32,000 nucleotides of DNA from Flavobacteriaceae bacterium (GTDB lineage Bacteria; Bacteroidota; Bacteroidia; Flavobacteriales; Flavobacteriaceae), in the NCBI GenBank assembly GCA_965224465.1, contig OZ245049.1, forward strand, positions 990,001 to 1,022,000, written 5' to 3'. The notes beneath the pieces were generated by a model. It worked only from the letters and a program-made list of their open reading frames with translations. It ran no database searches and was not told where the DNA came from. A program made the translations under genes and the position numbers. Position 1 is the first letter of the stretch. Every line of letters begins with the position of its first letter. Below are positions 7,474-32,000 of the stretch, one piece after another.

Positions 7474-7530
7474 TGATCACGAACTAAATGCACAAAAAAG
7501 CATCACGTGTCAAGACCAAAACTAAAAAAA

Positions 7531-7567
7531 GTCCCGAATGTAACCTGTTACATTCGGGACTTTTTTT
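7531..7567. terminator. Bidirectional rho-independent terminator between the convergent kdsC-like and pcm genes
   Basis: GTCCCGAATGTAAC-CTG-TTACATTCGGGAC is a 14-bp stem (one G-T wobble) flanked by an A-run on the left and a T-run on the right. Confidence 0.85.
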
Positions 7568-7593
7568 ATATTCTTTTCTCTAATTCATTGTCC

Positions 7594-8235
7594 TTAATTC
7601 TTATCCTTCAATAAAGGCACGAATTTAAAATCACCAAACTCATGTTTTTCAAAAGTTGAAGTTCCAGTTCTAATAATCAAAGTCATTATTTGAGTAGTCT
7701 CTCCAACAGGAATCACCAACCTTCCTCCTATTTTTAATTGACTCATTAATGGTTTTGGAATAAACGGGGCACCAGCAGTCACAATAATCCCATCATAAGG
7801 AGCATACTCTTTCAATCCAACATATCCATCACCAAACCCCATATGTCGAGGTCTATATCTTAATTTAGACAATAAAATAGAGGTCTTTTTAAACAGTTCT
7901 TTTTGACGTTCTATAGTATATACTCTAGCTTTCAACTCCAATAAAACAGCTGTTTGGTAGCCAGAACCAGTTCCTATTTCAAGTATTTGATCTCCTTTTT
8001 TAATTTCAAGTAATTCACTTTGAAAAGCAACAGTATACGGTTGGGAAATGGTTTGTTCTGCACCAATAGGAAAGGCTTTATCTTGATACGCAAAATTCTC
8101 AAAACTAGAATCCATAAAATAATGACGGGGAATTTTACGAATGGCATCCAATACCAACGTATCGTTTACACCTTGTAATTTTATAATATCCACTAATTGA
8201 TTCCTAAGCCCTTGATGTTTTAACGTATCTATCAC
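7594..8235 (-). CDS. pcm: Protein-L-isoaspartate O-methyltransferase
   Basis: Has IPRHYFMD, AFPIGAEQTISQPYTVA, the SAM-binding motif ILEIGTGSGYQTAVL, and DGIIVTAGAP...QLKIGGRLVIPVG. The start codon is apparently GTG. Confidence 0.92.
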   Translation of the reverse strand: MIDTLKHQGLRNQLVDIIKLQGVNDTLVLDAIRKIPRHYFMDSSFENFAYQDKAFPIGAEQTISQPYTVAFQSELLEIKKGDQILEIGTGSGYQTAVLLELKARVYTIERQKELFKKTSILLSKLRYRPRHMGFGDGYVGLKEYAPYDGIIVTAGAPFIPKPLMSQLKIGGRLVIPVGETTQIMTLIIRTGTSTFEKHEFGDFKFVPLLKDKN

Positions 8236-8258
8236 TATATTTATTAAATTTGAAAGCT

Positions 8259-8266
8259 CAAAATTA
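8259..8266 (-). promoter_or_regulatory. Candidate -7 box (TAATTTTG on the minus strand) for pcm
   Basis: TAnnTTTG match 24 nt upstream of the pcm start, in the divergent spacer shared with the oxidoreductase gene. Confidence 0.35.
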
Positions 8267-8288
8267 AGGATAAATCAATAACAATCCC

Positions 8289-8296
8289 TATTTTTG
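8289..8296 (+). promoter_or_regulatory. Candidate -7 box (TATTTTTG) for the Gfo/Idh/MocA gene
   Basis: TAnnTTTG match 28 nt upstream of the ATG at 8324. A second match (TAAATTTG, 8245-8252) also exists, so the assignment is ambiguous. Confidence 0.35.
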
Positions 8297-8323
8297 TAAT
8301 TATAAAAAAATAAACTTATTACT

Positions 8324-9283
8324 ATGCTTAAAGTAGGTGTTTTAGGTGCTGGTCACCTTGGGAAAATTCATTTAAAATTATTAAAACAATCCGAAAAATA
8401 CGAACTAGTAGGTTTTTTTGATCCAATACCCGAAAATGCTGCATCCGTAGCAAAAGAATTTGGTTATAAAACATTCGATTCCGTAAGCGAACTGATACAA
8501 GCCGTAGATGTTATAGACATTGTTACCCCAACCTTAAACCATTTTGAATGTGCTAAAGAAGCCATTGAAAACGGAAAACATATATTTGTAGAAAAACCAA
8601 TTACAAAATCAGTTGCAGAAGCAGAAACCTTAATTGCTTTGGCGAAGAAACACAATGTAAAAGGCCAAGTAGGACATGTAGAGCGATTCAACCCTGCATT
8701 TAGTGCTGTGAAAGATTCCATTAAAAATCCGATGTTTATAGAATCACATCGTTTGGCAGAATTCAATCCTAGAGGAACAGATGTCCCCGTAGTTTTGGAC
8801 TTAATGATTCACGATATTGATATTATTTTAAGTGTTGTAAAATCTAAAGTAAAAAACATTAGCGCTAGTGGCATCTCTGTAATTAGTGAGACTCCAGATA
8901 TTGCCAATGCACGCATCGAATTTGAAAATGGCTGTGTGGCAAATTTAACTTCGAGTAGGATTTCTTTGAAGAACATGCGTAAAACACGTTTTTTTCAAAA
9001 AGATGCTTACATCGCAGTTGACTTTTTTGAAAAAGCAACAGAGGTGGTAAAAATGAAAGACGCACCCAAAATCCCAGGAGATTTTGATATGATATTACAA
9101 AATGCTGAAGGAATAAAAAAGCAAATTTATTTTGAAAACCCAACAGTAGAAGCAAATAATGCCATTTTAGATGAATTAAACACATTCGCAGATGCCATAG
9201 AAAACAACACCACTCCAATTGTAACTTTAGAACAAGGAACAGAAGCATTGAGAGTTGCTTACCAAATTATCGATAATTTTTAG
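8324..9283 (+). CDS. Gfo/Idh/MocA-family NAD(P)-dependent oxidoreductase
   Basis: N-terminal Rossmann motif KVGVLGAGHLGKIH and the EKP motif (HIFVEKPI). Length and C-terminal alpha/beta domain are typical of the family. Confidence 0.85.
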   Translation: MLKVGVLGAGHLGKIHLKLLKQSEKYELVGFFDPIPENAASVAKEFGYKTFDSVSELIQAVDVIDIVTPTLNHFECAKEAIENGKHIFVEKPITKSVAEAETLIALAKKHNVKGQVGHVERFNPAFSAVKDSIKNPMFIESHRLAEFNPRGTDVPVVLDLMIHDIDIILSVVKSKVKNISASGISVISETPDIANARIEFENGCVANLTSSRISLKNMRKTRFFQKDAYIAVDFFEKATEVVKMKDAPKIPGDFDMILQNAEGIKKQIYFENPTVEANNAILDELNTFADAIENNTTPIVTLEQGTEALRVAYQIIDNF

Positions 9284-9312
9284 TAATTAAAGATCATATT
9301 GAGTATTGAGCA

Positions 9313-9360
9313 AAAATCTAAATTAGGAAAAACCTTTTGTTTTTTTTAATTTAGATTTTT
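9313..9360 (+). terminator. Long inverted repeat / terminator candidate after the oxidoreductase gene
   Basis: AAAATCTAAATTA (9313-9325) pairs with TAATTTAGATTTT (9347-9359). The loop is T-rich and a T-run follows. Confidence 0.45.
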
Positions 9361-9434
9361 ATTAACAATAGTTTCCCTCCTAAACACAGGAAACAACCAT
9401 CCCCGTAAAAACGGGAACACACACGCTCAATACT

Positions 9435-10322
9435 ATGAAAAACATTGCAGTAATAGGTGCAGGAACAATGGGCAACGGTATAGCCCATGTATTTGCACAA
9501 GCTAATTTTAATGTACATTTAATTGATATCTCTGACCAAGCCATTGCAAAAGGTGTACAAACTATAGAGAAAAACCTCAATAGGTTATTAGCCAAAGAAC
9601 GGATTTCTGAATCTGAAAAAACAAGCACTCTTGCTAATATAGCAACATTTACTTCCCTAGAAAATGGTTTAAAAAACATGGATTTAGTAATTGAGGCTGC
9701 CACAGAAAACAGCGCGTTAAAACTTAAAATATTCAAGCAACTAGATGAAGTTTGTGACGAAAAAACAATCTTAGCTTCGAACACCTCCTCTATTTCCATT
9801 ACTAAAATAGCCGCTGCTACCAAAAGACCAGAAAAAGTAATTGGAATGCACTTTATGAATCCCGTTCCTGTCATGAAATTGGTAGAGATTATTAGAGGTT
9901 ACTCTACTTCAGACAAAGTCACTGAAACAATTATGAACCTATCAAAAAAACTTGGAAAAACACCTACAGAGGTAAATGATTATCCCGGTTTTGTAGCAAA
10001 TAGGATTTTAATACCAATGATTAACGAATCTATAGAAACACTTTACACAGGTGTTGCTGGCGTATCTGAAATAGATACCGTTATGAAATTAGGAATGGCA
10101 CATCCGATGGGTCCCTTACAATTGGCCGATTTTATTGGACTCGATGTCTGTCTCTCTATTTTGAACGAGCTGTTTGACGGCTTTAAAAATCCAAAATACG
10201 CACCATGTCCTTTATTAGTAAATATGGTAATGGCGGGGAAACTTGGCGTAAAATCTGGTGAAGGTTTTTATGACTATTCTCAAAGCAGAAAAGCTGAAAC
10301 TGTTGCCAATCAATTTTCTTAA
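9435..10322 (+). CDS. hbd: 3-hydroxybutyryl-CoA (3-hydroxyacyl-CoA) dehydrogenase
   Basis: NAD-binding motif IAVIGAGTMGNGIA, then SNTSS, GMHFMNPVPVMKLVEII and PGFVANRIL. The C-terminal domain contains MGPLQLADFIGLD. Confidence 0.9.
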   Translation: MKNIAVIGAGTMGNGIAHVFAQANFNVHLIDISDQAIAKGVQTIEKNLNRLLAKERISESEKTSTLANIATFTSLENGLKNMDLVIEAATENSALKLKIFKQLDEVCDEKTILASNTSSISITKIAAATKRPEKVIGMHFMNPVPVMKLVEIIRGYSTSDKVTETIMNLSKKLGKTPTEVNDYPGFVANRILIPMINESIETLYTGVAGVSEIDTVMKLGMAHPMGPLQLADFIGLDVCLSILNELFDGFKNPKYAPCPLLVNMVMAGKLGVKSGEGFYDYSQSRKAETVANQFS

Positions 10323-17298: not shown

Positions 17299-18210
17299 TT
17301 AGTCTCTTAAGTTAGTACCTGTTAATTCCATAAATAATTGTTCCAGATTTGGCTGTAAAAATTCGATATTTAAAATTTTAAGCCCTGCTATATTCAATAG
17401 ATGTAATACATTTGTGAGCGCTTCATCTTTAGAACAATGAAGCAACAATGTTCCATCTTTCAATTCGTATTTAACAGGTAATTCTACATTAAAATCAACC
17501 AGTAATTCTTGAAACGAAATAATAATTCCCCCTGTATTTGAAGTTGTCTTTAACAATTCATCTAAGGTACCCTGTACTAAGATTTTCCCTTTATCAATAA
17601 TAGCAATCTGAGAACATAACCGCTCTACTTCTTCCATATAATGGGTAGAATATACTATGGTAGTGCCGCTTTCTTTCAACTTTTCAATAATTTCAAATAT
17701 TCGAATTCTACTTTGTGGATCAATCCCTACGGTTGGTTCATCCATTAAAACCACCGCAGGTTTATGTAACAACGCAACAGCAATATTTACACGTCGTTTC
17801 ATCCCTCCTGAATAGGTTTTTACTAAATCATTTTTACGAGATTCCAAACCTACCAACACCAATAATTCGGTGATACGTTCCTCCAGTAACCTACCTTTTA
17901 ACTTATATAAACTTCCAAAAAACCGTAAATTTTCAACCGCAGAAAAGGCTTCGTATAAAGCAATTTCTTGAGGAACAAATCCCAAGTTTTGTTGTGTATG
18001 TAATTTGTTTTTTAAAATATCTTTTTCATTTAAAAACACCTTACCTGAAGAAGCCTGCAAAAAACCACTTAACAAATGCATAAGGGAAGATTTCCCTGCT
18101 CCATTAGGTCCTAACAACCCAAAAACTGCTCCTTTAGGAATTGTCATATTCAACCCTTTAAATACTTGATGCGTGCCGTAACACATGGAAACATCTTGAA
18201 ATTGTATCAT
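17299..18210 (-). CDS. ABC transporter ATP-binding protein (ABC-2 exporter type with C-terminal extension)
   Basis: Walker A GLLGPNGAGKSS, Q-loop, signature YSGGMKRRVNIAVAL, Walker B VVLMDEPTVGIDP and H-loop STHYMEE. Confidence 0.95.
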   Translation of the reverse strand: MIQFQDVSMCYGTHQVFKGLNMTIPKGAVFGLLGPNGAGKSSLMHLLSGFLQASSGKVFLNEKDILKNKLHTQQNLGFVPQEIALYEAFSAVENLRFFGSLYKLKGRLLEERITELLVLVGLESRKNDLVKTYSGGMKRRVNIAVALLHKPAVVLMDEPTVGIDPQSRIRIFEIIEKLKESGTTIVYSTHYMEEVERLCSQIAIIDKGKILVQGTLDELLKTTSNTGGIIISFQELLVDFNVELPVKYELKDGTLLLHCSKDEALTNVLHLLNIAGLKILNIEFLQPNLEQLFMELTGTNLRD

Positions 18211-20204: not shown

Positions 20205-20558
20205 ATGTTAGGATTAGGTACAGAACACACGTATTATTATCACTTATCTGCAGTTGATATGCGAAAAGGATTTAATGGATTAAGTGGATTAGTTAGTGAG
20301 CACATGGAACAAGAGCGAGATAGAAATAGTGTTTATGCATTTATCAATAAGCAAAAAAATAAACTAAAACTTCTTCATTGGCGACCTGGAGGATTTGTAC
20401 TGTATTATAAACGATTGGAACGAGGTATTTTTGAGCTTCCAAAATACGACATTGAAGATGGATTAGTAGTTTTGAGTTATACCCAAATGGTTATGGTTTT
20501 AGACGGAATTAGTATTATAAATACTCAGAAAAACGAACGTTATTTAGAGGCTAAATAA
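20205..20558 (+). CDS. tnpB: IS66-family accessory protein TnpB (IS66 Orf2)
   Basis: DMRKGFNGLSGLV and LKLLHWRPGGFVLYYKRLERGIFELP are hallmark IS66 Orf2 motifs. 117 aa. Confidence 0.9.
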   Translation: MLGLGTEHTYYYHLSAVDMRKGFNGLSGLVSEHMEQERDRNSVYAFINKQKNKLKLLHWRPGGFVLYYKRLERGIFELPKYDIEDGLVVLSYTQMVMVLDGISIINTQKNERYLEAK

Positions 20559-20601
20559 TTCAATAAAACTGTAGGTTTTACCTGCTATTTAGTCTTGTTT
20601 T

Positions 20602-22104
20602 TTGTATATTTATAGTGTGGAAAACAATACAATAGACATACAAAAAGAGCTGGTAATTTTAAAGATTGAACTTGAAAAAACAGCTCAAGAACTAGCTGAA
20701 ATTAAGCAGCAATACGAGCAGCTTAAAAGAATGGTTTTCGGGTCTAAAAGCGAACGTTTTATCCCTGTTGACACAAATCAATTGTCGCTTTTCGGAAAAA
20801 TAATAGCTGAGAAAGAAGAGGCATACAAAAAACATATTGTAATCTACGAAAGAAAACAAAAGAAGAAAGGAAAGAAAAAACCTGTTCGCTCTTCTATACC
20901 TGCGCATTTTCCGCGAGTAGAAGAGATTATAGAGCCTAAGCACATAGAAGAAGGAGCTGTAAAAATAGGAGAAGAAGTTACAGAACTTTTAGAAATAACG
21001 CCTCTTTCCGTTTTTGTAAGACGAATTGTAAGACCTAAATATGCACTTCCGGAAGAAAAAGGCGTTGTTATAGCAGAATTACCAAGCTTACCGATACCTA
21101 AAGGAAATGCATCAGCAAGTTTATTGGCCTTTATACTTATTTCAAAATTTGTAGACCATTTACCACTTTACAGATTAATTCAAATTTTTAAACGACAAGA
21201 TTTAAAAGTAAGTAAATCAACAATTGGAGGATGGGTATCTAAAAGTTCGGAGCTTATCGCTCCTTTATACGATACATTTAAGGCTCAGTTTTTAGAAAAT
21301 GCCAATTATATTCAAGCAGACGAATCTCCTATAAAGGTTTTAGATAAAGACAAGAAAAAATCAACACACAGAGGGTATATGTGGGTGTATCGAAATCCTG
21401 TTAAAAATTTAGTTCTTTTTGAATACAATAAAGGGAGAGGAAAAGTTGTTCCAGAAGAGTTTTTTAAAGATTTCAATGGGACACTACAGTCCGATGGGTA
21501 TGCTGCATACCAAAACTTAACAACAAAAGGAGAAATTACTCTTTTAGGTTGCATGGCTCATGCTAGGCGGTATTTTGAGAAGGCGCTGGATAATGATCCT
21601 AAAAGAGCGGATGTTGTTTTGTTGGAAATTCAAAAGCTATACAAGATAGAACGTAAAATAAAAGAACAAGAATTAACTATTGAGCAAACTAAAGCATATA
21701 GAGAAAAACATGCATCACCTGTTTTAGACGGAATAGAAATTTATCTTACAAAAGAGCGAAAAAACGTACTGCCTAAAAGTGCCATAGGAAAAGCAATTGC
21801 TTATACTCTTAAAATATGGCAAAACCTAAAACTATACATCGATGATGGCAGGTTTGAAATAGACAACAATAATATAGAAAATGCCATAAGACCTTTAGCT
21901 ATTGGCAGAAAAAATTATCTCTTTGCTGGCAGTCATGAGTCCGCACAAAACATAGCTCTATTTTATAGCTTTTTTGCTACTTGCAAAAAGAATAACGTAA
22001 ACCCACATACGTGGCTATGTGATGTCCTTAATAGATTACCAGAACATAAGGCTAATAAACTTTCGGAGTTACTGCCTCAAAATTGGAAGCCTGTTGATAA
22101 ATAA
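20602..22104 (+). CDS. IS66-family DDE transposase (TnpC)
   Basis: N-terminal coiled coil (ELAEIKQQYEQLKRMVFG.KSERF), then ADESPIKVLD, RGYMWVY, LQSDGYAAY, GCMAHARRYF and DNNNIENAIRPLAIGRKNYLFAGS. The start is uncertain: TTG at 20602 or GTG at 20617, with no early in-frame ATG. Confidence 0.92.
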   Translation: MYIYSVENNTIDIQKELVILKIELEKTAQELAEIKQQYEQLKRMVFGSKSERFIPVDTNQLSLFGKIIAEKEEAYKKHIVIYERKQKKKGKKKPVRSSIPAHFPRVEEIIEPKHIEEGAVKIGEEVTELLEITPLSVFVRRIVRPKYALPEEKGVVIAELPSLPIPKGNASASLLAFILISKFVDHLPLYRLIQIFKRQDLKVSKSTIGGWVSKSSELIAPLYDTFKAQFLENANYIQADESPIKVLDKDKKKSTHRGYMWVYRNPVKNLVLFEYNKGRGKVVPEEFFKDFNGTLQSDGYAAYQNLTTKGEITLLGCMAHARRYFEKALDNDPKRADVVLLEIQKLYKIERKIKEQELTIEQTKAYREKHASPVLDGIEIYLTKERKNVLPKSAIGKAIAYTLKIWQNLKLYIDDGRFEIDNNNIENAIRPLAIGRKNYLFAGSHESAQNIALFYSFFATCKKNNVNPHTWLCDVLNRLPEHKANKLSELLPQNWKPVDK

Positions 22105-23004
22105 TCAAGGGTGTACTTTACCGTACGCTTACGTTAGTTTAAAACATTGAAATTAACAATTTCCATTGAAAAACTATTAAAAAAAAGAAAAAAAAACACC
22201 TTTTTTATTCCCTTCGCTTTCTATCGACTATAACATCAATAAATAACAGATGTAAACCGTGTCTATTTCGTTCTTTCGTTCTTAAAAAACAGAAACATAA
22301 CTAAGCCATTCTTCCATTTTTTTGTCTTGAAACTCGTATTTATCAACAGCCATTTGAAAATTAATTCGGTATATCTGGAGGCAGATACAGGTAAAGTAGT
22401 TTTCTAAATATATTTAGAAAAGCAGTAAAAAAAATCAAATGTTAGCCAGTACTCAACAACACATAGCATAAAGTACTCATCATACTTAATTATATCATTA
22501 ACCAGATAGACATGCGCGATGCACAAAACATGTTAGATCGTGCCTCTGCATAGACAATAGAGGTTTCTAATAAGAGCATAAAATATAGAATCTCTTGAAA
22601 ATTTGTTATGAATTAGTTTTTCTACCTTTGGAGAGAAAAACTGGAGGGTCTATATTTGTTGTGACGGCTCTATATTGTATCAACAAAACAATTAATAATC
22701 AAAAGCTAAAACTGCATACGTTTTTACATACGATACGTAAAGCTAGCAAGAGGAGAGCCCCGTAAAATGGTTGAGAATTCGGTCAACTTTGGGTTCTTTT
22801 CTGCCTGAGACGGACGCTGGTTCTTGCCGAAATTTAGAATTAATTTCTAATCTGGTTTTTATGAAGGTTAATATGGATACTACTTGCTGGTGTTTAATTG
22901 GACGAGAAGTTTATCCTGAGCGGAGTCGAACGGAGAACAGTTCCCGCTACTAAGTGGTAAAAAGAGAATCTAATTTGAGTTTTTTTTGTTTGTTAGATTC
23001 TTTT

Positions 23005-23095
23005 ATGGAAGATGACTTTGTAAGCTACGTTTTGTATTCTGAAAAATTTGATGAGACTTACTTCAAATCTTATTAGAGAAAGTTGTAATTAATCA
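23005..23095 (+). pseudogene. GIY-YIG (COG2827-like) nuclease gene relic, truncated and frameshifted
   Basis: ATG at 23005 gives MEDDFVSYVLYSEKFDETYFKSY-stop. The +1 frame continues LTSNLIRE, resembling the (Y)VLYS...YIG.T.NL..R N-terminus of small GIY-YIG proteins. Nothing beyond about 30 codons survives. Confidence 0.4.
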
Positions 23096-23258
23096 ATGAT
23101 TATTAGATAACGGAACGGTTCTGTCTCGTCTGTTAAAAAACAGGACTGACTTAAGACAATAATTAGGAGTCATAAAGACTGTCATTAACTGAATATTTTT
23201 GAGTGTCAGTAAATTCATGTAAATATTTACAGATGTGACAGAACCAGTTTAGTTACTG

Positions 23259-23363
23259 TTACTCTTTTTTAGATTTTTTTAATCTCTTTGCTGCTTTTTT
23301 TTCTTTTGGAGTTTTAGCCGCTTCTTTTTTTACGTTTTTCTTAGAGTCTTTACTTTTTGCCAT
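23259..23363 (-). CDS. Possible small lysine-rich protein (34 aa)
   Basis: Hand-translated minus-strand ORF MAKSKDSKKNVKKEAAKTPKEKKAAKRLKKSKKE-stop, below the ORF-track size cut-off. It could also be a chance ORF in an A/T-rich tract. Confidence 0.25.
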   Translation of the reverse strand: MAKSKDSKKNVKKEAAKTPKEKKAAKRLKKSKKE

Positions 23364-23810
23364 GATATTATCTATTAGTTTTTTTGTTTTTAATTTATTT
23401 TAATTGCTGAAAATATTTTTAGTCAAACTTTTAATTTCGCAATAGTACTTAACATCGTACAGATTTGGTTGTTGTTTTTTTTGATATTAAATCCAACAAC
23501 GGCTCTGTCGCATCGGCTAAAGATAAAATAAAAGTTTAGTTTAATCCTGTTTTAAGCGATTAATGATCTTTTTGTTGATTTTTAGGGGGCAACGTTCCAA
23601 CTCCTTTACACGTTCTAAAAGAACTTGAACAGTAGTTAATAACTCTAAATATATGACTTGTTTTGGTAGCATAAAAACACCTCTCACACCACTCCAGAAT
23701 CAAGTTCGGGGTAGGCAAAATCATACGAGAGCTTCACTCGTATAAAAACACTTCTAAATTTCATATACCTATACGACGGTTCAAAAAATTAAAGTTTATG
23801 TATTATTACA

Positions 23811-23870
23811 GGTTTCTATCAAGGGTAAAACAAATTATTTATATCGGTAATTTTGGATTGTAATTGGTTC
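23811..23870 (+). repeat. MITE-like dispersed repeat, copy E (3' half only)
   Basis: GTAAAACAAATTATTTATATCGGTAATTTTGGATTGTAATTGGT matches the 3' module of copies A-D. The 5' module is absent. Confidence 0.55.
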
Positions 23871-23894
23871 TAAATAGCACTAATCAGAAAGAAA

Positions 23895-24410
23895 TTAAGG
23901 AAATAAGACTAAACCACCATCAATCTTATATAGGTGTTTATGTGTGCTACTAGAGTTTCCATAATTTGTTGTTGTTAGTTCTGTCATATAGGATTCTTTA
24001 AGTTCTCCATCAACAAAAATTTCCATTTTATACTCAAAATTACTAACCGATCCCGTTGGATATGACACCTTTAATAATAACGCTAAAAGTGCTCCCCTCT
24101 TACCAGAAGTAATAGTATGCTTACGTACTCCTTTTTCTATTTGTGACACTCTAATATATCCCTCTTTAACAACCTCTCCTGTATTTTCATAGGTTATCTT
24201 ATAGTCTGTATTTTCCGTTTGTGTTGTGGTAGTTTTTCCAATAAAACCAATATTCCAATTCTTATAATCTCCCATTAAAGTTAGTTCAAAAGATATTTCT
24301 CCTAGTCCTTCAATTTTTTCTTCAACGTTATCATCCTCGTCTTTAGAACAGGATACAAAACTAAGTGTCGTAATTAATAGAAATAATACATATTTAAGTG
24401 AGGGTTTCAT
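23895..24410 (-). CDS. Hypothetical lipoprotein
   Basis: The likely start is the internal Met (MKPSLKYVLFLLITTLSFVSCSKDEDD), which gives a signal peptide plus lipobox Cys. The ORF track extends it to 24458. No recognisable domain. Confidence 0.65.
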   Translation of the reverse strand: MKPSLKYVLFLLITTLSFVSCSKDEDDNVEEKIEGLGEISFELTLMGDYKNWNIGFIGKTTTTQTENTDYKITYENTGEVVKEGYIRVSQIEKGVRKHTITSGKRGALLALLLKVSYPTGSVSNFEYKMEIFVDGELKESYMTELTTTNYGNSSSTHKHLYKIDGGLVLFP

Positions 24411-25611: not shown

Positions 25612-25690
25612 TTAGTTTTTTTAGGATTAAAATATTGCTGAAATTCATCAAGAATTATGCCGATTTGTAAATATTACACAACGTCTAGAT

Positions 25691-26104
25691 ATCGAAGAGG
25701 TTAAGGGAATCCCCCCCTAAAACTTCAAAGAACCGTGCTTGACAGTCTCCCGTCACACGGCTCTTGTTATACAAAACTTTCACTAACTATAGATAAATCC
25801 AAATTGCCAATAACAAAACAAATATCGATATTGTTCTTGTACTCGTTGCAACCATTTACTTGCTCGATATATACTGTTTTTATAACGTTCATACCTTTTT
25901 CTGCCCCATCTTATTAATCGCAGATTTAGTAGTTGGAGTACTTTGTGCAGCATTGAAAGACTAAACCTTCCATAGTAATTTATCCAAGCTCGTCTCATAG
26001 AATTCAACCGTTGAGCTATTCCTACGATGCTTTTATAGGACATCTTTTCTGCTTTTAGCGCTCCTAATTTATCAGCGATCACCTTAGGTGAACGTATACT
26101 TATA
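25691..26104 (-). mobile_element. 5'-truncated group II intron fragment (maturase C-terminus, domain V, domain VI)
   Basis: Collinear with 28035-28455 of the complete intron; by eye roughly four-fifths of positions are identical. Contains domain V (25730-25763) and the same terminal ..CGAT 3' end (25691). Similarity stops at about 26104, 6 nt after the stop of the upstream gene. Confidence 0.8.
25730..25763 (-). ncRNA. Group II intron domain V (truncated copy)
   Basis: The minus strand reads GAGCCGUGUGACGGGAGACUGUCAAGCACGGUUC, a 34-nt hairpin with AGC triad, AA bulge and GAGA (GNRA) tetraloop. Confidence 0.8.
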
Positions 26105-27983: not shown

Positions 27984-28074
27984 TTATAGTTCACTTTAAT
28001 GTGCGGATTTTTTGCTTGCAGGTAACGGCATGAAATCGAGTAGGCAAAGGGAGTTTCACCCTAAGCCTCTCACA

Positions 28075-28108
28075 GAACCGTGCTTGAAAGTCTCCCCTCA
28101 CACGGCTC
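28075..28108 (-). ncRNA. Group II intron domain V (complete copy)
   Basis: The minus strand reads GAGCCGUGUGAGGGGAGACUUUCAAGCACGGUUC. It has a 9-bp lower stem with the AGC triad, a 2-nt AA bulge, a 5-bp upper stem and a GAGA tetraloop. Confidence 0.85.
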
Positions 28109-28127
28109 TTGTTGTACAAATCTAGTT

Positions 28128-29390
28128 CTAACTGTAGATAAATCCAAATTGCCAATGGTAAAACAAGTATCGATATTGTTCTTGTACTCGTTGCAACCAT
28201 TTACACGCTCGATTTATACTCGTTTTGTAACGTTTATACCGTTTTCTGCCCCATCTTATCAATCGCTGATTAAGTAATCGGAAAACTTTGTGTAGCATCG
28301 AAATCCTATACTTGCCATAGTAATTTATCCAACCTCGAATCAGCGGATTCAATTCTTGGGCAATCCCTACGATGCTTTTATAGGTCATCTTCTCTACTTT
28401 CAATTCTCCTAACTTATCGGCTATTGCCTTGCGTGAACGTATACTTATAGCACAATCGTAGCCTAAAAACATGCCTTTTCGTTTCTTCGAAACGGTGGTG
28501 CGTGGTTGGAAAGAATATCCCAAGAAATCAAACTTTACTTCTCGGTATTTTTCCCGCCTGCGATAGTCTCGACAGTAAATGATTTTCGTTTTTATTGGAT
28601 GTAACTCCAAGTCAACTTCTTTCATTCGCTCTCTGATTGCTTTTAGCATCTGTTCTGCATGGTATTGACTTCTACAATGTACAATTACATCATCAGCATA
28701 TCTGCTGTATTTGATTGTAGTATCTGACTTTTCTATCCATTTATCAAAGGCATAATGTAGAAACAAGTTTGCAAGTAAAGGACTTATTACTCCTCCTTGC
28801 GGCGTTCCTTTGCCTTCTTTTTGGATGATTTTTCCAGATTTTGTTTCGACAGAACATACTAGCCATCGATGGATGTACAACTTTATCCAATTTTCAGAAA
28901 CATGTTGTTCTACGGCTAACATCAGTTTTTCATGACTTATATTATCGAAAAACCCTTTAATATCCATATCGATTACCCAATCAGTTTTCCAACAGTTTGT
29001 CCGTACTGATTCCAATGCCTGATGGGCATTCTTACACGGACGATACCCGTAAGAATTCGAACTGAATATACGCTCTAATCTAGGCTCGATGTAGTCTTTT
29101 ATTGCCATTTGACCTATTCGGTCAGCTATTGTCGGGATACCCAATGTTCTGACATTTCCATCTTTCTTAGGTATCTCAACTTCCTTAACCGATGGAGGAA
29201 AATAGCTCCCTGATGCCATCCGATTCCATAGTTTGTACAGATGTTTACTCCGGTTGGTATCGAAATCGTCCATACACACCCCATCTACTCCTGCACTCCC
29301 TTTGTTGGCTCGTACTTTCTTATAAGCTTCCCATATCATGGATCTGCTTATTGGTATTGATTTTGTCTCATTCCACAAATTCATCCTCAA
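28128..29390 (-). CDS. ltrA: Group II intron-encoded reverse transcriptase/maturase (no endonuclease domain)
   Basis: RT motifs RTLGIPTIADRIGQMAIK, IDMDIKGFFDNISH, GTPQGGVISPLLANLFL and YADDVIVH (YADD at 28689-28700), plus FLGY. The X/maturase region is RGWINYYGK. The ORF ends about 20 nt before domain V and has no HNH motif. Confidence 0.95.
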   Translation of the reverse strand: MRMNLWNETKSIPISRSMIWEAYKKVRANKGSAGVDGVCMDDFDTNRSKHLYKLWNRMASGSYFPPSVKEVEIPKKDGNVRTLGIPTIADRIGQMAIKDYIEPRLERIFSSNSYGYRPCKNAHQALESVRTNCWKTDWVIDMDIKGFFDNISHEKLMLAVEQHVSENWIKLYIHRWLVCSVETKSGKIIQKEGKGTPQGGVISPLLANLFLHYAFDKWIEKSDTTIKYSRYADDVIVHCRSQYHAEQMLKAIRERMKEVDLELHPIKTKIIYCRDYRRREKYREVKFDFLGYSFQPRTTVSKKRKGMFLGYDCAISIRSRKAIADKLGELKVEKMTYKSIVGIAQELNPLIRGWINYYGKYRISMLHKVFRLLNQRLIRWGRKRYKRYKTSINRACKWLQRVQEQYRYLFYHWQFGFIYS

Positions 29391-30005
29391 TATTTTTTTT
29401 TCTGAGTTGGTTCATTAAATAAAACGGTATAACTTACCTCCTTTGCTCCAGCTCCATTACAGAACCTTCATCACTACTACGAGGTAATCTGCCACTGTAT
29501 ATAACATTGGTGTTCTGCCTCTAAATTGATTTTATCGTACATTTCCCTTCGCATTTATATACAGCTTCCCAAGTTCCATAATTAAGCCTAAATAAAGTTC
29601 TTGCCATCTGAATGACGTTAGCCTTACAGTAAATAAATAGGTTATTTCTGTAATCATTCCCATTTATAGAAATGCTTTTCACTCCGTATCCGCCAACGCG
29701 CCATCTGGCTCTTTCACTAAATATGTCCTCTGGACATATTATGTACGTTCTGCCCTGTAGCTTTTGACTAAATGTACCCACTTCTCGACACCTCTTCAAT
29801 GGTTCACTTACGTTCAACTCCTTTATTCATACCTGCCAACCTCTTGGGTTGGATTCTCCTAAACGCTCAGTACCATAACTATTAATTACAGCACCTTTAG
29901 GTGGTTTAGAGCCATCGCCTATACAACGACTCTGATGGACCTACCATCATCTTAATTACAGCATTCAGTCAGTTTATTGCCGTGACTGATTCTTGGCACA
30001 CTAAG

Positions 30006-30101
30006 AATAGTAGCGGATTTCAAGGTACGAACCTTTCAATTTATCACTAAACTTTATTCAAAGATACTCACTTTTAATTTAGCAAAAAAACCGCTATTAT
30101 T
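30006..30101 (-). other. Long-range stem closing the RT gene 3' UTR, immediately 5' of the intron insertion site
   Basis: On the minus-strand RNA, AAUAAUAGCGG (30101-30091) pairs with CCGCUACUAUU (30016-30006) at 10 of 11 positions. The stem encloses 74 nt containing smaller hairpins (CUAAA/UUUAG, AAGGU-UCGU-ACCUU). The intron 5' splice site lies 5 nt after the 3' arm. Confidence 0.35.
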
Positions 30102-30112
30102 TTTATACATTG

Positions 30113-31918
30113 TTAGTCATTCGCCTTATTTTTATTCCGTTCTAATACTTGATAATAGTAACTAAAAGGTTTGTCATAAAATATGATTTGTTTTTTTCTT
30201 TCTATGTCGTCTTCATCATCATCTTCCTTTTCTTTTTCAAGATTTTTGACAGACTTTAACAAGTCGTAATATAATTTACTACGATTCCTATCTAACTGTT
30301 TAATTTGTAATATTGAATCTTTATTTAGACTTAATTCCTTAAAACCATTTTTCCAACACATATCTGTTGAAACTTCTTCAAAATTGTTTAACCCAATTCT
30401 TCCAACTGACATTCCAATTAATCTATTTATTGCAGATTCAATAACATATCCTTTGAATTTTCTTTGTCCAAGTTCGATTGCTTTTTCAATTTCATTTACT
30501 ATCTTTTTCTGCTTTTTAAGTTCTTTTTCTAATGAATTTTTTCTAACACGAATGTTTCCTTTATGATGAATTTCATATCCAACAAAACTAATCCAAGGAA
30601 AGCCATTATTATGGATTGAATCCCATTTATATGCTCCTTTTGATTTAGTGTGCCAAAATGGTTTAATTGTAAATTCGGTTTTACTTATCTTCTCTGTTAA
30701 TTCATATACAAACTTATGTGGAACTAATTTCAACTCTTTTAAACAGTTTTTGTAAATGTTTTTTGCTTTTTCACATATTTTTTTATCCTTATGTATTATT
30801 AGCATATCATCACAAAATCGAATATAAAAGACTTCTGTTTTTAACAATTCTTTATCAGCCTCATTTAGTACAATGTTTGCAATTAATCCCGATAAAGCAC
30901 CACCTTGTGGCACTCCAATTCTTTCTTCCTCAATGTTTGAATAGTATTTTAATTCTATTAATCGATTCTTAATCCAACCAAACTCGCCATTTGGTATTTT
31001 ATAACTATCCCAATATTTAGTATTATTTGATAATGGAATATTTATATTAAAAGCATAACAGTTTAAATATTCATTAAAAATATGTTTCACAATTTTGAAA
31101 TCAAAATCTGGATTATCTTCTTTTGATTTATCTATTAAATTGTTAAATAGTTTTTTTACGATTTTATGATTAACTGAATCGTAAAATTTTTCCATATCAC
31201 ATTCAACAACAAACAATGGTTCATAGTTGTTTTTCTTTTGTAATTCAATAACGTTTTTTATACAATCGTGATGTGAAATCGTAGATGTTCCTTCCTTATT
31301 TTTTTTTGAACGAAAAGCGTATGAAGAATCTTGAAAATATCCATCAAATAAATTAGTTAGAAATTTATTTGATATACTTAAAATAATTCTTTCTTTCAAT
31401 GAAAACATTGAAATAGGGCGACATTTATTAGTTTCAGTTTTAGAAATTAATTCCTCCTTTAGTTTTGGGAAAACAAGAGGCCTTTTTATATTAAAATCAT
31501 CATTTTCAATTGCTGATTGAATATTTTTTACAAACTTATCAAGTTCTATAAGCCAATTTACTTTAGGGTCTTTTTTTCGATAAAGTTTTATTGTTTTTAA
31601 TATTGAATAAAAATTTTTATCATTTGAAGTTAATTTTTCAGTTCCATCTCTATTCATTCTTGATTTGCAACCAAGTTTTACCCATTTTTTTCGTGGTGGA
31701 AGAATTTTACTTAATTGATTGTTTAACTCAAATTGATATTTTGAAAATTCATTTTCATCAACTATTTTTTGTTCTTTGAGATGGTAATTATATTTATCAG
31801 AATCAGTTAAAAGATGAATTAGGTGTTTTTTATTTCGAGTTTTAGCAATTTTAACACGTAATTTACAAATGTGAGTTACAATTGCTCTTTCTGTAAAATA
31901 TGTAGAAAATTCTTTCAT
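30113..31918 (-). CDS. Stand-alone (non-intron) reverse transcriptase of about 601 aa with a long N-terminal extension; family unassigned
   Basis: RT motifs RPISMFSLKERIILS (1), FVVECDMEKFYDSVNH (A), IGVPQGGALSGLIANIVLNEADKEL (B), YIRFCDDMLIIH (C; FCDD codons at 30806-30817), LKLVPHK (D) and FVGYEI (E). About 170 aa precede motif 1 and about 85 aa are inserted between A and B. The C-terminal region of about 150 aa has an acidic tail, EKEKEDDDEDD. I chose the start at MKEFSTYF (ATG 31916-31918). The reading frame stays open to the window edge (31999), so the start could lie further upstream. Confidence 0.85.
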   Translation of the reverse strand: MKEFSTYFTERAIVTHICKLRVKIAKTRNKKHLIHLLTDSDKYNYHLKEQKIVDENEFSKYQFELNNQLSKILPPRKKWVKLGCKSRMNRDGTEKLTSNDKNFYSILKTIKLYRKKDPKVNWLIELDKFVKNIQSAIENDDFNIKRPLVFPKLKEELISKTETNKCRPISMFSLKERIILSISNKFLTNLFDGYFQDSSYAFRSKKNKEGTSTISHHDCIKNVIELQKKNNYEPLFVVECDMEKFYDSVNHKIVKKLFNNLIDKSKEDNPDFDFKIVKHIFNEYLNCYAFNINIPLSNNTKYWDSYKIPNGEFGWIKNRLIELKYYSNIEEERIGVPQGGALSGLIANIVLNEADKELLKTEVFYIRFCDDMLIIHKDKKICEKAKNIYKNCLKELKLVPHKFVYELTEKISKTEFTIKPFWHTKSKGAYKWDSIHNNGFPWISFVGYEIHHKGNIRVRKNSLEKELKKQKKIVNEIEKAIELGQRKFKGYVIESAINRLIGMSVGRIGLNNFEEVSTDMCWKNGFKELSLNKDSILQIKQLDRNRSKLYYDLLKSVKNLEKEKEDDDEDDIERKKQIIFYDKPFSYYYQVLERNKNKAND

Positions 31919-32000
31919 AATATAAAATAAGAAAAAGGGTTCCTGTAAAGTGCTTACGCACATATTGACAAAGATACTGACATATAAATGTCGAGCCATT

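What the first reader, a model, noticed from the sequence alone, without database searches (positions are those of the whole stretch)
30113..32000. Orphan reverse transcriptase of about 600 aa outside any ribozyme context; candidate stand-alone defence-type or novel RT
**What the sequence shows.** All catalytic RT motifs are intact (motif A D in CDMEKFYDS, motif B PQGGALSG, motif C FCDD).

**Why it does not fit the RT classes I can recognise.**
- It is not the RT of the adjacent group II intron, which encodes its own, very different YADD-type RT/maturase.
- There are only 111 nt between its stop and that separate intron, which is too short for any domain V/VI of its own.
- It is roughly twice the size of a retron RT.
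- Motif B is QGxxLSG-type, not the DGR signature.
- Unlike AbiK/AbiA-type proteins, as I recall their architecture, the RT core is preceded by about 170 aa of unrecognisable sequence rather than sitting at the N-terminus.
- It also carries an insert of about 85 aa between motifs A and B, and a thumb-like C-terminal region ending in an acidic tail.

**Context.** It sits at the edge of an island packed with IS66, IS21 and group II intron material, which is the kind of neighbourhood where defence genes accumulate.

**Limit.** Only about 80 nt upstream of the likely start are visible. A partner ncRNA or upstream effector gene, as in retrons and several UG/DRT systems, would be outside the window.
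Basis: partly seen in the sequence, partly recalled or inferred. Interest (0 to 1): 0.72.

Follow-up and report, generated by a model that had tools for sequence, protein, structure and literature searches.

The report
UG39 defence-type reverse transcriptase, cut at window edge
The gene is an intact reverse transcriptase of the already catalogued but never tested UG39 group, and it is not an orphan: relatives almost always have a primase-like partner gene and a conserved structured RNA just upstream, and the window edge cuts through that RNA.

Summary
**Observation.** The ORF and its RT motifs are real. The true CDS is 30113..31918 (-), 601 aa. The 27 extra N-terminal codons of the listed 628-aa ORF are non-coding.

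**Classification.** It is not a new RT class. It matches PADLOC's RT_UG39 profile end to end (E 4.6e-201). UG39 is a Class 2 UG/Abi group defined in 2022. That study left its defence role as 'inconclusive', and no experiment on it exists in the searchable literature.

**It is not an orphan.**
- In 64 of 65 evaluable related loci, a 340-370 aa archaeo-eukaryotic-type (AEP) primase-like gene (BT4734-like_N + PriCT-2, catalytic motifs invariant) lies next to the RT. In 60 it is directly upstream on the same strand.
- The same genome appears to encode such a partner (P0125). Adjacency is not shown.
- Between the two genes I found a roughly 150-nt structured RNA, present in 55 loci. 24 of 26 base pairs show compensatory changes. 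It has no Rfam family and is not mentioned in the 2022 paper. Its 3' 68 nt are window 31933..32000.

**Closest structure and likely mechanism.** The closest solved structure is DRT9. Inferred, not shown: the RNA serves as scaffold and template for cDNA synthesis, probably primed from the conserved C-terminal SYYY tail, and the primase-like partner acts on the product. An antiviral role is plausible but unproven.

**Verdict.** A new member of a known kind, of moderate interest.

The parts
30113..31918 (-). Reverse transcriptase gene, UG39 group (Class 2 UG/Abi), 601 aa, intact
   Evidence: ORF. The start is fixed by the homologue alignment. PADLOC RT_UG39 E 4.6e-201 over the full length; Pfam finds only RVT_1. 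There are 775 homologues with E<=1e-10, and the best 120 are all 53-89% identical and near full length. It carries every invariant residue of a 63-sequence alignment.
31933..32000 (-). 3' 68 nt of a conserved structured non-coding RNA of about 150 nt. The 5' half lies beyond base 32000.
   Evidence: Covariance model R2 hits here at 62.6 bits, E 2e-10, model positions 78-145, flagged as cut at the 5' end. The same model hits once per locus, always just upstream of the RT on the RT strand, in 55 related loci, and nowhere else in 1.25 Mb searched on both strands.
31994..32000 (-). AAUGGCU: the 3' strand of a probable pseudoknot with the loop of helix P3, which is outside the window
   Evidence: In the closest relatives this segment pairs with the P3 loop: AGCCAUUU/AAAUGGCU in L029 and UUUGGUCAUUU/AAAUGACUAGA in L002. 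Other clades have different but complementary pairs at the same two places (UUCACUU/AAGUGAA, UUUACUU/AAGUAAA, AUCACUU/AGGUGAU, UUAUCC/GGAUAA). The pairing is not evident in every clade.
31966..31982 (-). Unpaired, near-invariant core UGUCAGUAUCUUUGUCA (UCAGUAU at 31974-31980). The two UGUCA copies are 12 nt apart. Candidate template region.
   Evidence: These are the most conserved columns of the RNA. They lie between the pseudoknot/P3 and hairpin P4. The A-B-A' reading is my inference from the Class 2 DRT template logic. The 3' UGUCA copy varies in some clades.
31950..31961 (-). Hairpin P4 of the RNA (GUGC-GUAA-GCAC)
   Evidence: All 4 pairs show compensatory double changes across loci, and 97.6% of cells are paired.
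31937..31945 (-). 3' strand of the closing helix P1 (CAGGAACCC). Its partner strand GGGUUCUG lies outside the window, inside the 3' end of the partner gene.
   Evidence: All 8 P1 pairs covary (for example GGGGUCGG/CCGACCCC in L020 and L038, and GUUAGUUCC/GGAACUAAC in L030). P0125 ends in KKKGSEAG, which is compatible with GGGTTCTGAGGCGG as in L001.
30806..30817 (-). RT motif C, FCDD (catalytic aspartates D370 and D371)
   Evidence: Read from the sequence. R367-F-C-D-D-M372 is invariant in 63 sequences.
30887..30910 (-). RT motif B, PQGGALSG
   Evidence: Read from the sequence; invariant in 63 sequences.
31196..31198 (-). RT motif A aspartate (D241 in ECDMEKFYD)
   Evidence: Read from the sequence. 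E239, C240 and D241 are invariant.
30203..30238 (-). Acidic, poorly conserved linker (residues 561-572), predicted disordered
   Evidence: Length and sequence vary in the alignment. pLDDT is below 50 for residues 563-577.
30149..30172 (-). Conserved C-terminal tail KPFSYYYQ (residues 583-590). Candidate protein-priming Ser/Tyr residues.
   Evidence: K583, P584, S586, Y587 and Q590 are invariant; F585 and Y589 are at least 90% conserved. DRT9 primes from two tyrosines in its C-terminal tail, and DRT10 from a C-terminal Ser or Tyr. The priming role here is an inference.

Best explanation
**What it is.** The gene is the reverse transcriptase of a UG39 system, a three-part cassette found mainly in Bacteroidota. 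The cassette reads, in order: an AEP-type primase-polymerase-like gene (BT4734-like_N + PriCT-2, about 340 aa), a structured non-coding RNA of about 150 nt, and the RT (about 600 aa). The window holds the RT and the last 68 nt of the RNA. The rest of the RNA and the partner gene lie beyond base 32000.

**Shown here**
- Family membership of the RT.
- Near-obligate linkage to the partner gene in relatives.
- Intact catalytic motifs in both proteins.
- The RNA, with covariation in its helices.
- DRT9 as the closest solved fold.

**Inferred, by analogy with the characterised Class 2 relatives DRT9, DRT10, DRT2 and DRT3a**
- The RT binds the RNA as both scaffold and template.
- It copies the near-invariant unpaired stretch framed by the pseudoknot/P3 and hairpin P4, possibly repeatedly: UGUCA-GUAUCUU-UGUCA would give a 12-nt repeat.
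- It probably starts from a Ser or Tyr of its own flexible C-terminal tail (SYYY).
- The primase-like partner then acts on the single-stranded cDNA, most simply by priming or making the second strand. Less likely, it supplies the primer.
- The DNA product is likely to serve phage defence.
For: **Membership**
- PADLOC RT_UG39 at 667 bits. The next best profiles are UG17 at 91, Drt9 at 82 and Drt2 at 72 bits.
- The group and its partner are described in PMC9226505.

**Partner gene**
- tblastn finds it in all of loci L001-L064 except L024, which sits at a contig edge.
- It lies on the same strand in 61 of those loci. In 60 it ends about 70-250 nt before the RT (110-170 nt in most). It is head-to-head in 3 loci.
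- Pfam finds BT4734-like_N + PriCT_2.
- PADLOC gives RTasVirE-PriCT2 at E 4.5e-128 and PrimPol at E 4.7e-29 for P0125.
- DxD, His and hD motifs are invariant in 53 homologues of 28-56% identity. These correspond to AEP motifs I-III.
- The top fold matches are all AEP PrimPols, though weak.

**Same genome**
- P0257 equals the window ORF. P0257 and P0125 are each recorded on a 5,241,564-bp contig.

**The RNA**
- 56 model hits, all at the same place.
- 95.1% of cells are paired, against 40-55% when partners are slid.
- 24 of 26 pairs show double changes: 209 double-change cells against 7-22 when slid.
- An independent minimum-free-energy fold of L001 recovers P1, P2 and P3.
- There is no Rfam match.

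**Fold of the RT**
- The AlphaFold2 model has pLDDT 84.5. The best PDB matches are the DRT9 chains (9vma_A at E 5e-16, 9nlv_A), aligned over nearly the full length.

**Mechanistic precedent**
-.

**Context**
- The cassette sits in different flanks in different genomes. Homology to L001 stops 24 nt after the stop codon.
- Neighbours include restriction-modification, Abi-type and AbiE genes.
- It is essentially absent from phage, plasmid and viral-contig collections.
Against: - There are no expression, cDNA or phenotype data of any kind.
- The 2022 survey could not show defence-island enrichment for UG39.
- My neighbour scan is only suggestive. Some 'defence' hits (AriA, AbiLi, mad3) are generic ABC-type ATPase matches: the window's own ABC transporter ATPase also gives them.
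- No recognised defence gene lies in the 30 kb of window downstream of the RT.
- The template is not identified. The 3' UGUCA copy is not conserved in all clades, and the pseudoknot is not evident in all clades.
- The covariation counts were made on an alignment fitted to the model's structure.
- Adjacency of P0125 to this RT is inferred from equal contig length, not seen.
- The RT fold match to DRT9 is only moderate (TM 0.44-0.57), and the partner's fold match is weak (E 6.5e-3).
Confidence: 0.62

Rival explanations
1. The cassette is not an immune system. It is a DNA-synthesis module of a mobile element or a repair/maintenance function: RT plus primase-polymerase acting as a small replicon or retro-element replication unit, or in damage tolerance.
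For: - AEP primases with PriCT-2 are almost exclusively found on mobile elements and usually serve their replication.
- The cassette sits in different genomic contexts.
- A few neighbours are integrases.
- The window region is rich in IS66 and group II intron copies.
- The 2022 survey left defence 'inconclusive'.
- A PrimPol-RT fusion protein of E. coli has been linked to an oxidative DNA damage response as well as to defence (abstract listed).
Against: - The partner has no helicase domain and there is no recognisable origin.
- No consistent integrase or mobility gene accompanies the cassette (2 of 138 neighbours).
- There are no hits in 50,697 phage records, one in 72,556 plasmids and one in 2.9 million viral contigs.
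- Every experimentally tested member of the Class 2 UG lineage is antiviral.
Confidence: 0.2
2. The conserved RNA is a cis-acting leader that controls translation or transcription of the RT mRNA, not a template. The RT would then make DNA without a template, or from some other template.
For: - The element sits directly in front of the RT start codon.
- It ends in a U-rich run (31919-31936).
- Class 1 UG RTs work without a template.
Against: - No terminator-like hairpin is found in the region.
- The element is a multi-helix fold with a pseudoknot and long, invariant unpaired stretches. That is typical of a protein-bound RNA.
- In every characterised Class 2 relative, the RNA next to the RT is the bound scaffold and template.
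Confidence: 0.1
3. It works like a retron. The upstream RNA, closed by a long-range helix like a retron's a1/a2 repeats, is copied into a branched RNA-DNA molecule primed from a 2'-OH. The partner would be the effector.
For: - The gene order, RNA then RT with an accessory gene, resembles a retron.
- So does the closing helix joining the RNA's two ends.
Against: - The retron RT profile scores 41 bits against a cut-off of 235.
- The RT is twice retron size, and it belongs by profile to UG39 and by fold to DRT9.
- The conserved C-terminal Ser/Tyr tail points to protein priming.
- The partner is a polymerase-type enzyme, not a typical retron effector.
Confidence: 0.04
4. One reading: a stand-alone RT of a class not yet described.
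For: - General libraries (Pfam, NCBIfam) recognise only a generic RT domain.
- Sequence search of solved structures matches only the palm motifs.
Against: - It gives a full-length match to the existing RT_UG39 profile.
- The group was published in 2022.
- The partner gene and RNA are conserved in relatives.
- The same genome appears to encode the partner.
Confidence: 0.02

Closest known systems
UG39 group of Class 2 UG/Abi reverse transcriptases (Mestre et al. 2022, PMC9226505; formerly 'UG28b'; PADLOC models RT_UG39 and RTasVirE-PriCT2)
   Same: Full-length profile match. Same size, with no extra known domain. Same partner protein family (VirE_N/BT4734-like_N + PriCT-2).
   Different: Nothing differs at the protein level. 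The 2022 description does not list a non-coding RNA for this group and reports no experiment. The RNA found here would be an addition to the known picture.
DRT9 (UG28): RT plus upstream ncRNA, protein-primed poly-dA synthesis (PMC12483538; PDB 9NLV, 9VMA)
   Same: - It is the closest solved fold, aligned over nearly the whole protein.
- A structured RNA lies immediately upstream of the RT.
- The RNA has highly conserved sequence as well as structure.
- A conserved tyrosine-bearing C-terminal tail follows a flexible linker.
   Different: - Only 16% sequence identity; the Drt9 profile scores 82 bits against 667 for UG39.
- About 100 aa longer.
- The RNA is unrelated in sequence and has no conserved poly-U tract.
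- An obligatory AEP primase-like partner is present, which DRT9 lacks.
DRT10 (UG17): RT + ncRNA + SLATT, telomerase-like tandem-repeat cDNA (bioRxiv 10.1101/2025.10.16.682844 and 10.64898/2026.06.29.735271)
   Same: - It is the second-best RT profile (91 bits).
- It is a three-part system with an RNA between or next to the genes.
- The template window is framed by two stem-loops.
- An A-B-A'-like direct repeat is present in the main UG39 clade.
   Different: - The partner is a primase-polymerase-like enzyme, not a SLATT membrane protein.
- The UG39 unpaired core is nearly invariant, whereas DRT10 template loops are poorly conserved.
DRT7 (UG10) and DRT3: systems that couple an RT with a second polymerase activity (bioRxiv 10.64898/2026.04.18.719102; 10.64898/2026.05.04.722794)
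   Same: An RT is paired with a second DNA-synthesising activity (a primase-polymerase domain in DRT7, a second RT in DRT3). Together they yield duplex-like DNA.
   Different: - DRT7 is a Class 1 RT that synthesises DNA without a nucleic-acid template (the protein itself dictates the sequence), and its PrimPol domain is fused.
- Here the RT is Class 2 with an RNA, and the AEP is a separate protein of the BT4734-like family.
- The UG10 profile scores only 39 bits.
Group II intron RT/maturase and group II-like (G2L) RTs
   Same: Palm and finger motifs are most similar by plain sequence search. They are also second in fold search (GsI-IIC, G2L4).
   Different: TIGR04416 scores 102 bits against a cut-off of 300. 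There is no maturase (GIIM) domain and no flanking ribozyme. The neighbouring intron has its own, different RT.

Membership tests
UG39 (Class 2 UG/Abi RT) | RT sequence matches the group's profile over its full length and better than any other RT group | tested here: met
   PADLOC RT_UG39 at E 4.6e-201, 667 bits, residues 3-593 against profile positions 2-540 of 541. The next best is UG17 at 91 bits.
UG39 (Class 2 UG/Abi RT) | Association with a VirE_N (BT4734-like_N) + PriCT-2 protein ('cluster 64') | tested here: inconclusive
   For this locus the partner position is outside the window. A matching protein, P0125 (PADLOC RTasVirE-PriCT2, E 4.5e-128), is recorded on a contig of the same length as the one carrying this RT. 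Adjacency is not seen. In relatives the feature is met: the partner is found in 64 of 65 evaluable loci, 61 on the same strand as the RT (60 of them directly upstream).
UG39 (Class 2 UG/Abi RT) | No additional known domain fused to the RT (the Class 2 criterion) | tested here: met
   Pfam reports only RVT_1.
DRT9 (UG28) | RT belongs to the UG28/Drt9 profile | tested here: not met
   Drt9 profile 82 bits against 667 for UG39. The 2022 paper separates UG39 from UG28 on phylogeny and partner gene.
DRT9 (UG28) | Upstream ncRNA with a universally conserved poly-uridine template tract | tested here: not met
   An upstream structured RNA exists. Its conserved unpaired core is UCAGUAUCUUUG, not a U tract.
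DRT9 (UG28) | Priming tyrosines in the C-terminal tail | not testable with these tools
   A conserved S586-Y587-Y588-Y589 tail follows a disordered linker. Its function needs biochemistry.
DRT10 (UG17) | RT of the UG17 profile with a co-evolving SLATT partner | tested here: not met
   UG17 profile 91 bits only. The conserved neighbour is an AEP primase-like protein, not SLATT.
DRT2 (UG2) | NCBIfam Drt2 equivalog score above the cut-off | tested here: not met
   75 bits against a cut-off of 390.
Group II intron RT/maturase | Profile score above the cut-off, a maturase domain, and location inside an intron ribozyme | tested here: not met
   TIGR04416 at 102 bits against 300. No GIIM domain. Rfam finds ribozyme domains only in the separate intron at 28035-30001.
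Retron RT | Retron RT profile score above the cut-off | tested here: not met
   NF038233 at 41 bits against a cut-off of 235.
AEP primase-polymerase, BT4734-like family (the partner protein) | Motifs I (hhhDhD), II (His) and III (hD) conserved; AEP fold | tested here: met
   IVIDID, H149 and ELD169 (L001 numbering) are invariant in 53 homologues. The motifs are defined in PMC5862659. Pfam PF08800 at E 1e-25 to 1e-29. PADLOC PrimPol at E 4.7e-29. Fold search top hits are NrS-1, ASFV and pRN1 PrimPols, but they are weak, E 6.5e-3.

The most novel reading that the evidence does not exclude
UG39 would be a two-polymerase immune system of a kind not yet described.
- A Class 2 RT would copy a short, nearly invariant stretch of its own RNA into protein-linked tandem-repeat single-stranded DNA.
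- A dedicated, helicase-less AEP primase-polymerase would recognise that specific repeat and convert it into double-stranded DNA, or extend it.
- The RNA-templated first strand and the primase-dependent second strand would thus be made by two separate, co-evolving proteins.

The conserved RNA described here, with its pseudoknot and UCAGUAU core, would be the first RNA component reported for this group.
Probability: 0.3. Interest if true: 0.7.

Novelty: new member of a known kind. Interest (0 to 1): 0.4.

Why it matters
For this window the finding mostly tidies up. The 'mystery RT' has a name. Its deposited gene model is 27 codons too long. Its functional unit is cut by the window edge.

Beyond the window, UG39 is one of the Class 2 UG groups that nobody has tested. 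Every tested Class 2 group (DRT2, DRT3a, DRT9, DRT10) has turned out to make an unusual repetitive DNA from a small RNA.

UG39 is now seen to be large: 775 protein clusters with E<=1e-10 and 64 genome loci with the partner gene. A covariation-supported RNA with an almost invariant unpaired core, and an obligatory primase-polymerase partner, give a concrete and cheap experiment: sequence the RT-dependent DNA and look for repeats complementary to UCAGUAUCUUUG. The system is also a candidate for a natural pairing of first-strand and second-strand synthesis.

Tried and rejected
- **Exact-sequence look-ups to extend the contig.** I tried the 600-, 601- and 628-aa forms of the RT and P0125. None is on record. 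The sequence beyond base 32000 could not be fetched. Only the cluster listing links P0257 and P0125 to a 5.24-Mb contig.
- **RNAalifold on a plain MAFFT alignment.** This gave only 15 pairs because the hairpin interiors were misaligned. I replaced it with a hand-annotated two-sequence seed and two rounds of covariance-model search.
- **Rfam.** Nothing was found at gathering thresholds in the window apart from the introns. Only noise appeared at E up to 10 on a full-length copy of the RNA.
- **Sequence and profile searches of PDB with the partner.** No meaningful hit. Only the fold search pointed, weakly, to AEP PrimPols.
- **A link between the J2/3 motif AAGUAUCA and the core CAGUAUC as a long-range template repeat.** Both change to AGUAUU in the Pedobacter clade. 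The Cytophagia-type clade, however, has AGUUUC against AGUAUC. I rejected it as inconsistent.
- **The second AGTATCTTTG, 45 nt after the stop codon (30059-30068).** It is not conserved in any related locus, so I treat it as chance.
- **The A-B-A' reading.** It holds in the main clade. The 3' copy varies (UGCCA, UGCA, UUACA), so I keep it only as a hypothesis.
- **PADLOC hits among neighbours as proof of a defence island.** I down-weighted these, because generic ABC ATPases also give AriA, AbiLi and mad3 hits.
Full report

Yes. The minus strand carries an open frame from 31999 to the stop at 30113. The three catalytic RT motifs are present exactly as quoted: ECDMEKFYDS, PQGGALSG and FCDD.

The coding sequence is shorter than the listed ORF. 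In an alignment with 15 homologues of 53-85% identity, all start at a methionine equivalent to ATG 31918-31916 (MK.F...). That gives 601 aa. The 27 codons upstream are not conserved as protein. They are, however, conserved as nucleotides, as described in section 4.

The neighbouring group II intron is real and separate:
- Rfam finds D1-D4 at 29831-29948 and D5/6 at 28035-28110.
- Its own RVT_1 + GIIM protein is at 28128-29390.
- Its 5' GUGUG is at 30001, which is 111 nt after the RT stop.

**2. What the protein is**

General libraries see only a generic RT domain (Pfam RVT_1, E 1e-20). NCBIfam scores all fall far below their cut-offs: group II 102 bits against 300, Drt2 75 against 390, retron 41 against 235.

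The defence-specific PADLOC library gives an end-to-end match to RT_UG39: E 4.6e-201, 667 bits, residues 3-593 on profile positions 2-540 of 541. The next profiles are far behind: UG17 at 91, Drt9 at 82 and Drt2 at 72 bits.

UG39 was defined by Mestre et al. 2022 (PMC9226505). According to that paper:
- It is a Class 2 UG/Abi group split off from UG28 ('UG28b').
- Its defence prediction was 'inconclusive'.

In the searchable library, UG39 appears in no other relevant paper. The later DRT numbers go to other groups: DRT10 is UG17 and DRT11 is UG5.

The family is large and well conserved. There are 775 protein clusters with E<=1e-10, and the best 120 are all 53-89% identical and near full length. 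In a 63-sequence alignment there are about 150 invariant positions spread over the whole length.

**3. It is not an orphan**

I fetched 73 related genome loci, mostly Bacteroidota with some Ignavibacteria and spirochaetes. I clustered their flanking ORFs. One family stands out: a 340-370 aa protein directly upstream on the same strand.

tblastn finds it in every one of loci L001-L064 except one at a contig edge:
- on the same strand in 61 loci; in 60 of these it ends about 70-250 nt before the RT (110-170 nt in most);
- head-to-head in 3 loci;
- two tandem systems in one locus, L062.

The seven loci without it are the most distant RTs (26-32% identity, other phyla) and are probably other groups.

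The protein has Pfam BT4734-like_N (formerly VirE_N) and PriCT_2. The BT4734-like family is one of the recognised archaeo-eukaryotic primase (AEP) families. AEP catalysis needs motifs I (hhhDhD), II (His) and III (hD) (PMC5862659). All three are invariant in 53 partner proteins that are only 28-56% identical to the reference: IVIDID, H149 and ELD169.

A confident structure model of the partner (pLDDT 86.9) has AEP primase-polymerases as its best PDB matches: NrS-1, ASFV and pRN1. These matches are statistically weak, with a best E of 6.5e-3. There is no helicase domain.

For the window's own genome:
- The cluster listing shows that the deposited 628-aa product (P0257) is identical to the window ORF. 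It is recorded on a 5,241,564-bp contig.
- A partner protein, P0125, is recorded on a contig of that same length. P0125 is 342 aa and 85% identical to the partner in the closest locus. It matches PADLOC RTasVirE-PriCT2 at E 4.5e-128.
- I could not fetch the DNA, so adjacency is inferred, not shown.

**4. A conserved structured RNA between the two genes**

The roughly 150 nt before the RT start are far better conserved at the nucleotide level than expected for proteins of 55-60% identity. They also show obvious compensatory changes.

I annotated four helices on a two-sequence seed, built a covariance model, searched all loci, rebuilt the model and searched again. The second model gives 56 hits in 1.25 Mb searched on both strands. 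Every hit lies immediately upstream of an RT on the RT's strand, one per locus. One of them is the window at 31933-32000 (62.6 bits, E 2e-10, model positions 78-145, marked as cut at its 5' end).

On the resulting alignment:

| Measure | Observed | Partners slid by 1-3 columns |
|---|---|---|
| Cells forming a standard pair | 95.1% | 40-55% |
| Cells with changes on both sides | 209 | 7-22 |

In addition, 24 of 26 pairs have changes on both sides. These counts lean towards the model, because the alignment was fitted to it. Two things are independent of the model: the raw sequences show the same swaps, and a single-sequence energy fold of the closest relative recovers P1, P2 and P3.

The architecture, 5' to 3', is:
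1. Closing helix P1.
2. Conserved GAAG.
3. Hairpin P2.
4. Conserved AAGUAUCA.
5. Helix P3 with an inner 3-bp stem and a loop.
6. Conserved CUUAAAA.
7. A segment complementary to the P3 loop.
8. About 30 unpaired nt holding the almost invariant AUGUCAGUAUCUUUG.
9. Hairpin P4.
10. UUUACA.
11. The P1 3' strand.
12. A U-rich run and the start codon.

The loop-to-downstream pairing is a pseudoknot. It is supported by different complementary sequences in different clades: UUCACUU/AAGUGAA, UUUACUU/AAGUAAA, AUCACUU/AGGUGAU, AGCCAUUU/AAAUGGCU, UUAUCC/GGAUAA and UAACACUG/CGGUGUUG. It is short or unclear in some clades.

The 5' end of the RNA overlaps the last codons of the partner gene. The stop codon falls at different places inside the RNA in different loci. 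The constraint is therefore on the RNA, not on the protein tail.

Rfam has no family for it. The 2022 paper reports RNAs for UG2, UG3+UG8, UG28 and UG27, but not for UG39.

**5. Structure of the RT**

The AlphaFold2 model is confident: pLDDT 84.5, pTM 0.84. Its best PDB matches are the six DRT9 chains (9vma_A at E 4.9e-16; 9nlv_A at TM 0.48/0.57), aligned over nearly the whole protein. Next come group II intron RTs, G2L4 and DRT2.

The acidic run (residues 561-571) is a variable linker of low confidence. The segment KPFSYYYQVLER that follows is nearly invariant.

In DRT9, DNA synthesis is primed by two tyrosines in just such a C-terminal tail. In DRT10 the primer is a C-terminal serine or tyrosine.

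**6. Context**

Nucleotide homology between the window and the closest locus (L001, 86.6% identical) runs from the window edge to 30089. That is 24 nt past the stop codon. Nothing downstream is shared. The cassette therefore sits in different surroundings in different genomes.

Among 138 nearest-neighbour proteins from 35 loci, the commonest families are:
- type I and IIG restriction-modification subunits;
- AAA_21/AAA_15 ATPases;
- AIPR;
- RNase_T;
- a few integrases.

About ten Pedobacter and Sphingobacterium loci have AbiEi/AbiEii directly upstream. This is suggestive of defence islands but not decisive. The ATPase hits are partly generic.

The window itself shows no recognised defence gene downstream. 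It has an intron, a lipoprotein, a C92 peptidase, an intron fragment, IS66, an ABC transporter, a two-component system and then housekeeping genes.

The RT is practically absent from phage, plasmid and viral-contig collections: 0, 1 and 1 hits.

**7. How it most likely works**

*Shown:* an intact UG39 RT; a near-obligatory AEP-type partner with intact catalytic motifs; a structured RNA between them; and a DRT9-like fold with a Ser/Tyr tail.

*Inferred:* in all characterised Class 2 UG systems the adjacent RNA is bound by the RT and serves as both scaffold and template. A short unpaired template is framed by two anchored stem-loops, and the systems studied produce repetitive cDNA. In UG39 the unpaired, invariant core lies between the pseudoknot/P3 and P4, which fits that layout.

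In the main clade, including the window, the core reads UGUCA-GUAUCUU-UGUCA. That is an A-B-A' pattern that would give a 12-nt repeat. Four loci carry (GUAUCA)2-3 there instead. The 3' copy is not strictly conserved, so this remains a hypothesis.

The primase-polymerase partner most simply primes or synthesises the complementary strand on the RT's product. This would resemble the RT/PrimPol hand-off in DRT7 or the two-RT duplex synthesis in DRT3. Alternatively it supplies the primer.

My confidences:
- Family membership: about 0.97.
- The RNA is real: about 0.9.
- RNA-templated synthesis: about 0.6.
- An antiviral role: about 0.55.

**8. Verdict**

The 'orphan, possibly novel RT' reading does not hold. 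This is a further member of a catalogued, untested group, and the window cuts its functional unit.

The added value is the RNA, which I could not find described, and the clear primase-polymerase character of the partner. Interest is moderate.

Noticed in passing
window 31919-31999 (-): The deposited gene model for this RT (P0257, 628 aa) starts at ATG 31999 and translates the non-coding RNA as MARHLYVSIFVNMCVSTLQEPFFLFYI. Several homologue clusters of 622 aa seem to carry the same kind of spurious N-terminal extension.
   Followed up: yes
window 28035-30001 (-): A complete group II intron: D1-D4 and D5/6 Rfam hits, and a 420-aa RVT_1 + GIIM protein at 28128-29390. It is inserted 111 nt downstream of the UG39 RT stop, just outside the region shared with the closest relative.
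   Followed up: partly
window 25665-26082 (-): A 3' fragment of a second copy of the same intron. It has a D5/6 hit at 25665-25765 and an ORF holding only the last 99 aa of the intron protein, closely similar to the C-terminus of the full copy.
   Followed up: partly
window 20205-22104 (+): IS66-family element: TnpB-like Orf2 at 20205-20558 and the transposase at 20602-22104. It is followed by about 1.8 kb (22100-23900) without ORFs over 60 aa.
   Followed up: partly
window 30059-30068 (-): A second exact copy of AGTATCTTTG, the core of the RNA's invariant stretch, lies 45 nt after the RT stop. One of 100 shuffles gave two or more matches. It is not conserved in any of the 73 related loci, so it is probably chance.
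   Followed up: yes
L015 9829-9987, L016 9835-9988, L019 192-343, L058 9836-9988: In these Flavobacterium loci the RNA's core is replaced by two or three tandem copies of GUAUCA (for example AUGUAUCAGUAUCAGUAUCAAUAGUCA). This looks like a literal repeat expansion at the candidate template.
   Followed up: partly
L062 4642-11629: A Sphaerochaeta chromosome carries two partner + RT systems in tandem.
   Followed up: no
L061, L063, L072 (about 7500-10000): In three divergent loci (31-35% RT identity) the primase-like partner is on the opposite strand, head-to-head with the RT. The RNA model scores only weakly there.
   Followed up: no
L041 6979-8782 and about nine other Pedobacter/Sphingobacterium loci: An AbiEi/AbiEii toxin-antitoxin pair sits directly upstream of the partner gene on the same strand.
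   Followed up: partly
window 30344-30412 (-), RT residues 503-525: The segment MSVGRIGLNNFEEVSTDMCWKNGF is almost invariant across the family, yet it is predicted with pLDDT below 50. It may be a loop that becomes ordered only on binding RNA or DNA.
   Followed up: no
window 17299-18210 (-): An ordinary ABC-transporter ATPase gives PADLOC hits to mad3 (E 2e-29) and AriA (E 5e-14). This is a reminder that such hits among neighbours are not by themselves evidence of defence genes.
   Followed up: yes
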